The notes beneath the pieces are model-generated. The model was not told where the DNA came from and did no database searches. It was given only the letters and a program-made list of their open reading frames with translations. Below, piece after piece: positions 38,688 to 39,053 of a stretch of DNA of 64,000 nucleotides (positions are counted from its first letter, which is position 1; each line of letters starts with the position of its first letter). The DNA comes from Squalus acanthias (taxonomy: Eukaryota). The stretch is from the NCBI GenBank assembly GCA_030390025.1, contig CM059432.1, positions 7,936,001-8,000,000 of the forward strand, given 5' to 3'. Both the position numbers and the translations under genes were made by a program.

Positions 38688-38724
38688 AGTTCTGACGAAA
38701 GGTCTTCGACCTGAAACGTTAACT
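38688..38724 (+). ncRNA. Minimal type I hammerhead ribozyme motif in a Penelope-like terminal fragment (38688-38820)
   Basis: AGTT CTGACGA A AGGTC ttc GACCT GAAA CGT T AACT. Confidence 0.75.
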
Positions 38725-39016
38725 CTGTTTCTCTCTCCACGGATGCTGCCTGACCTGCTGAGTTTTTCCAGCGTTTTCTGTTGTTATTTCGGATTTCCAG
38801 CATCCGCAGTATTTTGCTATCGTAGCCTGTTCTCCTGTCGGGGAAGTTATGAGTCTGGCTAACAGCCTGCCCACGTAAAAAAAAGGGACGTCGTTACGGA
38901 AACGACCCAGACCATGATCTACTGGATGTGATGTGGAGATGCCGGTGTTGGACTGGGGTGGACAAATGTGAGACGTCGCACAACACCAGGTTATAGTCCA
39001 ACAGCTTTATTTGAAA

Positions 39017-39053
39017 TCACAAGCTTTCGGAGCGCTGCTCCTTCGTCAGGTGA
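39017..39053 (-). ncRNA. Minimal type I hammerhead ribozyme motif, second Penelope-like family (fragment about 38945-39060)
   Basis: Minus strand: TCAC CTGACGA A GGAGC agc GCTCC GAAA GCT T GTGA. Confidence 0.75.

What the first reader, a model, noticed from the sequence alone, without database searches (positions are those of the whole stretch)
38688..39053. Two convergent minimal hammerhead ribozymes of different families with fully compensatory stems
Seen: both have CUGACGA and GAAA cores. Stem I is AGUU/AACU vs UCAC/GUGA, stem II AGGUC/GACCU vs GGAGC/GCUCC, and helix III is reduced to the palindromes ACGU vs AGCU, with predicted cleavage after GUU vs CUU. They are about 300 bp apart on opposite strands. 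Established: Penelope-like elements carry minimal type I hammerheads whose palindromic helix III is thought to work as a dimer. Inference: two Penelope lineages spread ribozyme motifs in this genome; monomers may cleave poorly.
Basis: partly seen in the sequence, partly recalled or inferred. Interest (0 to 1): 0.7.

Follow-up and report, generated by a model that had tools for sequence, protein, structure and literature searches.

The report
Two chance-neighbour Penelope hammerhead relics
Both motifs have the complete sequence pattern of a small self-cutting RNA, each inside a different, extremely abundant short repeat that is likely the broken-off end of a Penelope-type jumping gene, and they likely landed side by side independently, so this is an ordinary example of a kind described in 2014.

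Summary
Confirmed: two minimal type I hammerhead motifs, 38688-38724 (+, family A) and 39017-39053 (-, family B), with the stems, palindromes and cut triplets stated; 0 of 200 shuffles give one. Each lies in a 130-140-bp repeat whose read depth is 10^5-10^6 times the flanks in three species labels. Family A shows two 3' ends 30-36 nt apart (the Penelope 'tail'), 5' truncation and target duplications. A contig of another species carries both flanks but is 259 nt shorter: an empty site for both. A has its own duplication, and an A:B dimer keeps only 3 of 12 pairs, so the convergent pair is likely coincidence, not a device. 'Fully compensatory' compares two families and is not covariation; A has A10.1-U11.1, not the consensus G-C. 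No RT/GIY-YIG ORF could be linked here; cleavage is untested. The class is published (PMC4209133), and the scan noted it before on other DNA of this and other genomes. One lead: 5' ends pile up at the ribozyme's edge rather than at its cut site.

The parts
38686..38822 (+). Family-A repeat copy A1: 5'-truncated 3' end of a likely Penelope-like element (ribozyme plus downstream part plus tail)
   Evidence: Depth plateau and loose ends at 38686-38689 and 38818/38824; four more copies in the window
38688..38724 (+). Minimal type I hammerhead A1: stem I AGUU/AACU, stem II AGGUC/GACCU, helix III ACGU, triplet GUU, predicted cut after 38720
38683..38693 (+). Left copy of the target duplication of A1; overlaps the 5' strand of stem I (microhomology join)
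   Evidence: 10 of 11 identical to 38823-38833; 4 of 400 random site pairs score as high
38823..38833 (+). Right copy of the target duplication of A1
38823..38928 (.). Single-copy host spacer between the two insertions
   Evidence: Depth 8-92 in bins 38839-38907; no second copy in the window; differences at depth 17 in run X6, the depth of the empty-site contig
38929..39061 (-). Family-B repeat copy: 5'-truncated 3' end of a second likely Penelope-like element; 39057-39061 is shared with the host flank
   Evidence: Depth plateau, loose ends at 38929 and 39061, empty-site contig resumes at 39057; single copy in the window
39017..39053 (-). Minimal type I hammerhead B: stem I UCAC/GUGA, stem II GGAGC/GCUCC, helix III AGCU, triplet CUU, predicted cut after 39021
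39006..39011 (-). AATAAA just downstream of ribozyme B; the Chrysemys row of the published alignment has the same layout
55054..55154 (+). Family-A copy A2 with intact ribozyme and no tail; 14-bp perfect target duplication at 55044-55057 and 55154-55167
   Evidence: 0 of 400 random site pairs score as high
50578..50894 (-). Family-A copy A3 with variant stem II, no tail and about 210 nt of upstream arm; 5' limit uncertain
   Evidence: the 30 nt upstream of its ribozyme match the loose-end consensus at 38686
51727..51834 (+). Family-A copy A4, starting inside helix III (4 nt upstream of the cut site), with tail; no catalytic core
42814..42852 (-). Family-A tail fragment A5

Best explanation
The two motifs are minimal type I hammerhead sequences inside two different, very high-copy 130-140-bp repeats that are likely 5'-truncated ends of Penelope-like retrotransposons, likely inserted independently about 105 bp apart and likely inert at this spot. 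Shown: the motifs, the repeat boundaries, the target duplication of A1, a shorter orthologous contig in another species, and the failure of A:B pairing. Inferred: each parent element's RNA was copied by target-primed reverse transcription that began in the tail, ran through the uncleaved ribozyme, stopped near its 5' edge and was joined to the target through a few matching bases. In the parent element, two same-family copies in a tandem transcript would swap strands through the 4-base palindrome (ACGU or AGCU) and cut after GUU or CUU, weakly and perhaps only with the element's protein. A lone copy here has no such partner.
For: Motif anatomy equals the published consensus in core, extra base after A9 and palindromic helix III. 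Summed contig depth is 1.1e7 over ribozyme A and 2.0e6 over ribozyme B against about 15 on the right flank in run X1, and similar in X6 and X8 (not a copy number). Family-A 3' ends fall at 38788/38790 and 38818/38824, and in the window 2 copies end at the first and 2 at the second site: a 30-36-nt optional tail, as described for PLEs. Longer copies continue upstream with the sequence seen in window copy A3. Target duplications: A1 10 of 11, A2 14 of 14. X6 record 17 holds 38540-38671 and 39057-39200 with 126 nt between, against 385 in the window. Homodimers keep 12 of 12 intermolecular pairs, the A:B heterodimer 3 of 12. A shark database protein (Scyliorhinus torazame hypothetical) reads through a family-A copy. 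Solo truncated PLE ends and opposite-strand min-HHR pairs 100-700 bp apart are in print.
Against: No RT or GIY-YIG ORF was tied to either family: protein searches gave 0 hits or 9 short proteins without Pfam domains, and the arm of A3 has no Pfam hit. No tail dimorphism and no target duplication were seen for B (best 7 of 8, at null level). The empty site is one contig, and it is 10 nt longer than removal of both inserts predicts (126 against 116). That this contig also carries the spacer is inferred from equal depth; the piece is not listed. 9 of the 15 joints shown link the 3' part of A to the 3' part of B in other contigs (1-10 contigs per joint and run; letters between unknown; 325 joints not shown). 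A lacks the consensus G10.1-C11.1 pair, and its predicted fold pairs the core with the substrate strand. Rfam has no matching model.
Confidence: 0.82

Rival explanations
1. A, spacer and B form one composite or functionally coupled unit, for example host DNA captured between two Penelope ends, or one family aiming at the other's neighbourhood.
For: Only about 105 bp separate the inserts; by window density the chance is about 3% (post hoc). 9 of 15 shown joints link the 3' part of A to the 3' part of B in other contigs. PLE ends can mobilise captured DNA. Both inserts are missing from the same orthologous contig.
Against: A1 has its own target duplication. The spacer is single-copy and appears to be present in the species lacking both inserts. 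The motifs are on opposite strands and keep only 3 of 12 dimer pairs. With repeats this abundant, unique contigs bounded by an A end and a B end are expected; enrichment was not tested.
Confidence: 0.07
2. The 130-140-bp ribozyme-to-tail units are a non-autonomous, SINE-like family in their own right, re-copied in trans by Penelope proteins, not just random truncations of full elements.
For: 3 of the 4 window copies with a complete ribozyme begin within 8 nt of its 5' edge. In run X1, 144 contigs have a non-element flank at 38689 and 116 a mixed flank at 38687, against 352 that continue upstream. Non-autonomous PLE derivatives are in print.
Against: Longer and shorter copies exist (A3, A4, A5), as random truncation predicts. 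The reference itself ends at 38686, which piles up ends there. Only 24 of 1392 loose-end rows were shown. No promoter or tandem unit was found.
Confidence: 0.2
3. One or both motifs are host-adopted ribozymes that process or destabilise a host transcript near the DSEL-like gene.
For: Both motifs are intact; a DSE-related ORF ends about 15 kb upstream on the + strand.
Against: Both inserts are absent from the orthologous contig of another species, so they are young. They are single members of huge families. Published monomers were inactive or needed protein. No exon or transcript was shown at the site.
Confidence: 0.03

Closest known systems
Minimal hammerheads (min-HHR) in the pLTRs of metazoan Penelope-like elements (Cervera and De la Pena 2014, PMC4209133; main-text parts 1-2 and supplement part 2 read)
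   Same: Type I topology, CUGANGA plus an extra base, GAAA, no loop 3, palindromic 15.2-16.2, short stem I, mostly solo copies, opposite-strand pairs 100-700 bp apart. B shares helix III AGCU, triplet CUU and the downstream AAAUAAA with the Chrysemys row, and stem I UCAC/GUGA with the Petromyzon row.
   Different: No shark family in the supplement text searched. A has A10.1-U11.1, an exception also seen in the Latimeria(2) and D. willistoni rows. Repeat depth suggests far more copies than the 4,000-9,000 reported for coelacanth and Xenopus. The parent ORFs were not reached here.
PAc, Poseidon-type PLE of Anolis carolinensis (Frangieh et al. 2024, PMC11167929; parts 1-2 read)
   Same: Ribozyme about 100-140 nt upstream of two alternative 3' ends (tail); copies retain the whole ribozyme, in line with uncleaved RNA as template.
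   Different: PAc has a known ORF starting in stem II and tested, protein-assisted cleavage; neither is shown for A or B, and clade assignment was not possible.
Non-LTR retrozymes (bioRxiv 10.64898/2026.07.22.740005, parts 1 and 3 and passages read; PMC7229834, search listing only)
   Same: Non-coding, type I hammerhead, derived from PLE ends, reported in one chondrichthyan.
   Different: Retrozymes are head-to-tail tandem units; A1 and B are solo, of different families and convergent.

Membership tests
PLE minimal hammerhead (min-HHR) | Type I topology with intact CUGANGA, GAAA and UH boxes | tested here: met
   0 of 200 shuffles under the strict descriptor
PLE minimal hammerhead (min-HHR) | No loop 3; positions 15.2-16.2 palindromic so that two copies can pair | tested here: met
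   ACGU and AGCU; homodimers keep 12 of 12 intermolecular pairs
PLE minimal hammerhead (min-HHR) | Extra unpaired base between positions 9 and 10.1 | tested here: met
   A in both motifs (consensus)
PLE minimal hammerhead (min-HHR) | G10.1-C11.1 pair (consensus above 80%, with published exceptions) | tested here: inconclusive
   Met by B; A1 and A2 have A-U, as do the Latimeria(2) and D. willistoni rows
PLE minimal hammerhead (min-HHR) | Self-cleavage as a dimer or with the element's protein | not testable with these tools
   Needs in vitro assay; predicted active dimers lie 10-13 kcal/mol above the cofold minimum, a model that ignores the core
Endonuclease-bearing Penelope-like element | Terminal repeat belongs to an element with an RT plus GIY-YIG ORF | tested here: inconclusive
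   No ORF reached; no whole genome; no related loci in three collections
Endonuclease-bearing Penelope-like element | Optional 30-40-bp 3' tail | tested here: met
   Family A ends at 38788/38790 or 38818/38824; not seen for B
Endonuclease-bearing Penelope-like element | Frequent 5' truncation with target duplication or microhomology join | tested here: met
   A1 and A2 duplications; longer upstream arms in other copies of A and B, 5-nt overlap at B's 5' end
Non-LTR retrozyme | At least two consecutive tandem units, each with a complete hammerhead | tested here: not met
   No tandem repeat at the site; nearest same-strand intact family-A motif is 16 kb away
Rfam hammerhead families | Score at the curated threshold of a hammerhead model | tested here: not met
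   0 hits at gathering score in 64 kb; no hammerhead at E<=10 in 38550-39200

The most novel reading that the evidence does not exclude
The 5' ends of these insertions are set by the ribozyme itself: reverse transcription of uncleaved RNA stops, or a splice acceptor at stem I acts, right at the ribozyme's 5' edge, which yields on the order of 10^5 fixed-length ribozyme-to-tail units that may propagate as a SINE-like family. Shark genomes would then hold a countable fossil record that the Penelope hammerhead works as a structural boundary, not as a cutter, during transposition.
Probability: 0.25. Interest if true: 0.5.

Novelty: new member of a known kind. Interest (0 to 1): 0.18.

Why it matters
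The pair itself matters little: it is two neighbouring repeat insertions of a class published in 2014. The wider value is that the in vivo role of Penelope hammerheads is still open, and families this abundant allow a direct count of whether insertions begin at the cut site, at the ribozyme's edge or at random. The locus may also serve as a presence/absence marker between related species.

Tried and rejected
No whole genome is held, so no genome-wide counts were possible. Rfam: no hammerhead. Collection scans for related loci gave 0 matches in metagenome, viral (25, 27) and genome contigs (24, 54); one search gave 3 bacterial loci whose flanks match at 27-30 of 120 bases, which is chance. Protein routes to the parent ORF failed: 15 candidates, 0 scored; 0 candidates; 9 proteins of 63-156 aa that read through solo copies; 0 of 9 with Pfam hits; three frames of 50690-51200, no hit. 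A six-frame Pfam scan of 36-56 kb was not obtained and the rest of the window was not scanned, so degenerate Penelope ORF remnants elsewhere in the window are not excluded. A4 as a copy that starts at the cut site: rejected, it starts 4 nt upstream. Folding z-scores as evidence: not significant. Run X17 as evidence of expression: rejected, its RNA status is a guess. Preferential conservation of the core: only a hint, since 40 of 74 difference rows were shown; the one shown substitution inside either ribozyme is U17 to C in B (26% of depth in X1), and the shown insertions lie in loop II. Lunse et al. on dimer cleavage is not held; it is cited through a review passage. No description of these shark families came up in six paper searches; subscription papers and Repbase were not searched, and file 1 of the PMC4209133 supplement could not be searched.

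Full report
Setting. The window is vertebrate DNA: an 878-codon ORF at 20889-23525 matches dermatan-sulfate epimerase (E 2.8e-114) and carries sulfotransferase domains, which fits DSEL (name recalled), and the ORF list is full of LINE-type remnants (read by eye). No whole genome is held. A database protein from Scyliorhinus torazame reads through a family-A copy, so that repeat occurs in a shark.

Observation. Both motifs are as written. A1 lies at 38688-38724 (+) and B at 39017-39053 (-), 292 nt apart and convergent, with predicted cuts after 38720 and 39021. My descriptor found 4 motifs in the window; 200 shuffles gave a mean of 0.02 (loose) and 0 (strict). The other two are family-A copies at 55054 (+) and 50681 (-); a relaxed scan added none. 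Rfam has no matching model, and free energies are unremarkable, so the evidence is the descriptor, not folding. 'Fully compensatory' is a comparison of two families that share 19 of 37 positions, mostly core. Among the three intact A copies no difference hits a conserved box, but that is three sequences. A opens stem II with A-U where the published consensus has G-C; exceptions exist in the published alignment.

What the motifs sit in. BLAST found 5 family-A copies and 1 family-B copy in the window. I laid 4 of the 21 listed runs on 38540-39200. Summed depth was 1e6-1.5e7 over both elements and about 5-250 on flanks and spacer in X1, X6 and X8 (three species labels). This is no copy number, but it shows two huge families with limits near 38686-38824 and 38929-39061. 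Family A ends at 38788/38790 or at 38818/38824; in the window A2 and A3 end at the first site, A1 and A4 at the second. This 30-36-nt step matches the optional Penelope tail. Longer A copies continue upstream with the sequence seen in A3. A3 runs about 210 nt further, to a stop codon after the residues EFNNFRL; that this resembles a Penelope ORF end is recalled, and Pfam gave nothing. B copies continue past 38929 into an ATG (loose-end consensus), as expected if the element ends at an ORF start (inferred).

Independence of the two insertions. A1 is flanked by an 11-bp duplication with one mismatch (4 of 400 random pairs score as high) and A2 by a perfect 14-bp one (0 of 400); both overlap the 5' strand of stem I, which points to microhomology joins. 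B has no duplication above chance but a 5-nt overlap with the flank. X6 record 17 carries 38540-38671 and 39057-39200 with 126 nt between them, against 385 in the window; differences inside the spacer occur at the same depth of 17, so this contig likely holds the spacer without either insert. Removing both inserts predicts 116 nt; 10 nt are unexplained. X1 record 8 runs from the flank into B, so B is present at this site in that sample. Against this reading, 9 of the 15 joints shown link the 3' part of A to the 3' part of B in a few contigs each, with unknown letters between and 325 joints hidden; I read them as unique DNA bounded by two abundant repeats, but enrichment was not tested. By window density the closeness has about a 3% chance, which still leaves many such pairs in a genome.

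How it likely works. In a tandem parent transcript two same-family motifs would swap strands through the palindrome: homodimers keep 12 of 12 intermolecular pairs, the A:B heterodimer 3 of 12, and A and B are on opposite strands anyway. Published min-HHR monomers showed no cleavage and dimers low cleavage (PMC4209133); the Anolis ribozyme needed the element's protein, and uncleaved RNA was the main template (PMC11167929); 1 of 9 Xenopus retrozyme dimers cleaved. The copies here keep the whole ribozyme, so their templates were not cut at this motif (inferred). At this locus each motif has no partner; the nearest same-strand intact A copy is 16 kb away. They are likely inert.

What is not shown. 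No RT or GIY-YIG ORF was linked to either family (collection scans 23-25, 27, 28, 53, 54). Membership of the Penelope class rests on ribozyme type, tail, truncation and junctions, and is stronger for A than for B. Clades could not be assigned. Cleavage and transcription are untested.

One lead. Three of the four window copies with a whole ribozyme begin within 8 nt of its 5' edge, and in X1 144 contigs have a non-element flank at 38689, against 352 that continue upstream. Family A also has a branch-point-like CTAAC/CCAAC, a T run and CAG ending inside stem I, like the D. virilis intron that ends at helix I. The reference ends at the same place and only 24 of 1392 loose-end rows were shown, so this is a lead only.

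Prior work. The class, solo copies and opposite-strand pairs 100-700 bp apart are described in PMC4209133. Six paper searches found no description of these shark families. Papers seen: PMC4209133 (parts 1-2 of 4, supplement search and part 2), PMC11167929 (parts 1-2 of 4), the 2026 retrozyme preprint (parts 1 and 3, passages), PMC8557442, PMC3846280, PMC6765202 and PMC6155905 (passages). Earlier notes of this scan report the same class in this and other genomes, including intact elements elsewhere in this genome; I could not check them and do not count them as support. Verdict: real motifs, known kind, coincidental pairing; interest 0.18.

Noticed in passing
window 3994-6385: About 400 degenerate copies of AACCCT (82% matches), a 2.4-kb interstitial telomere-like array.
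   Followed up: no
window 20889-23525 (+): 878-codon ORF matching dermatan-sulfate epimerase from its residue 308 on, plus a sulfotransferase domain: DSEL-like, with the N-terminal part in upstream exons or elsewhere.
   Followed up: partly
window 24144-25701: 16-bp minisatellite, 97 copies at 88% match, starting about 600 bp after the DSEL-like stop codon.
   Followed up: no
window 50578-50894 (-): Longest family-A copy; variant stem II with one extra base, and an upstream arm ending at a short reading frame that may be the parent ORF's end.
   Followed up: partly
window 50676-50700 (-) and loose ends at 38686: Splice-acceptor-like signal whose AG lies in the 5' strand of stem I of family A, as described for D. 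virilis Penelope.
   Followed up: no
window 38689-38823 (+): One reading frame is open through the whole of family A in A1 and A2; gene callers turn such copies into spurious short proteins.
   Followed up: partly
run X17 on 38686-38762; run X1 on 38929-39056: Single contigs join a family-A part back to its own start (77 nt) and two family-B copies with 24 nt between; possible tandem units at other loci.
   Followed up: no
window 39021 (family B): About 26% of depth in run X1 has the cut triplet CUC instead of CUU; not seen in X6 and rare in X8, so likely a subfamily.
   Followed up: no
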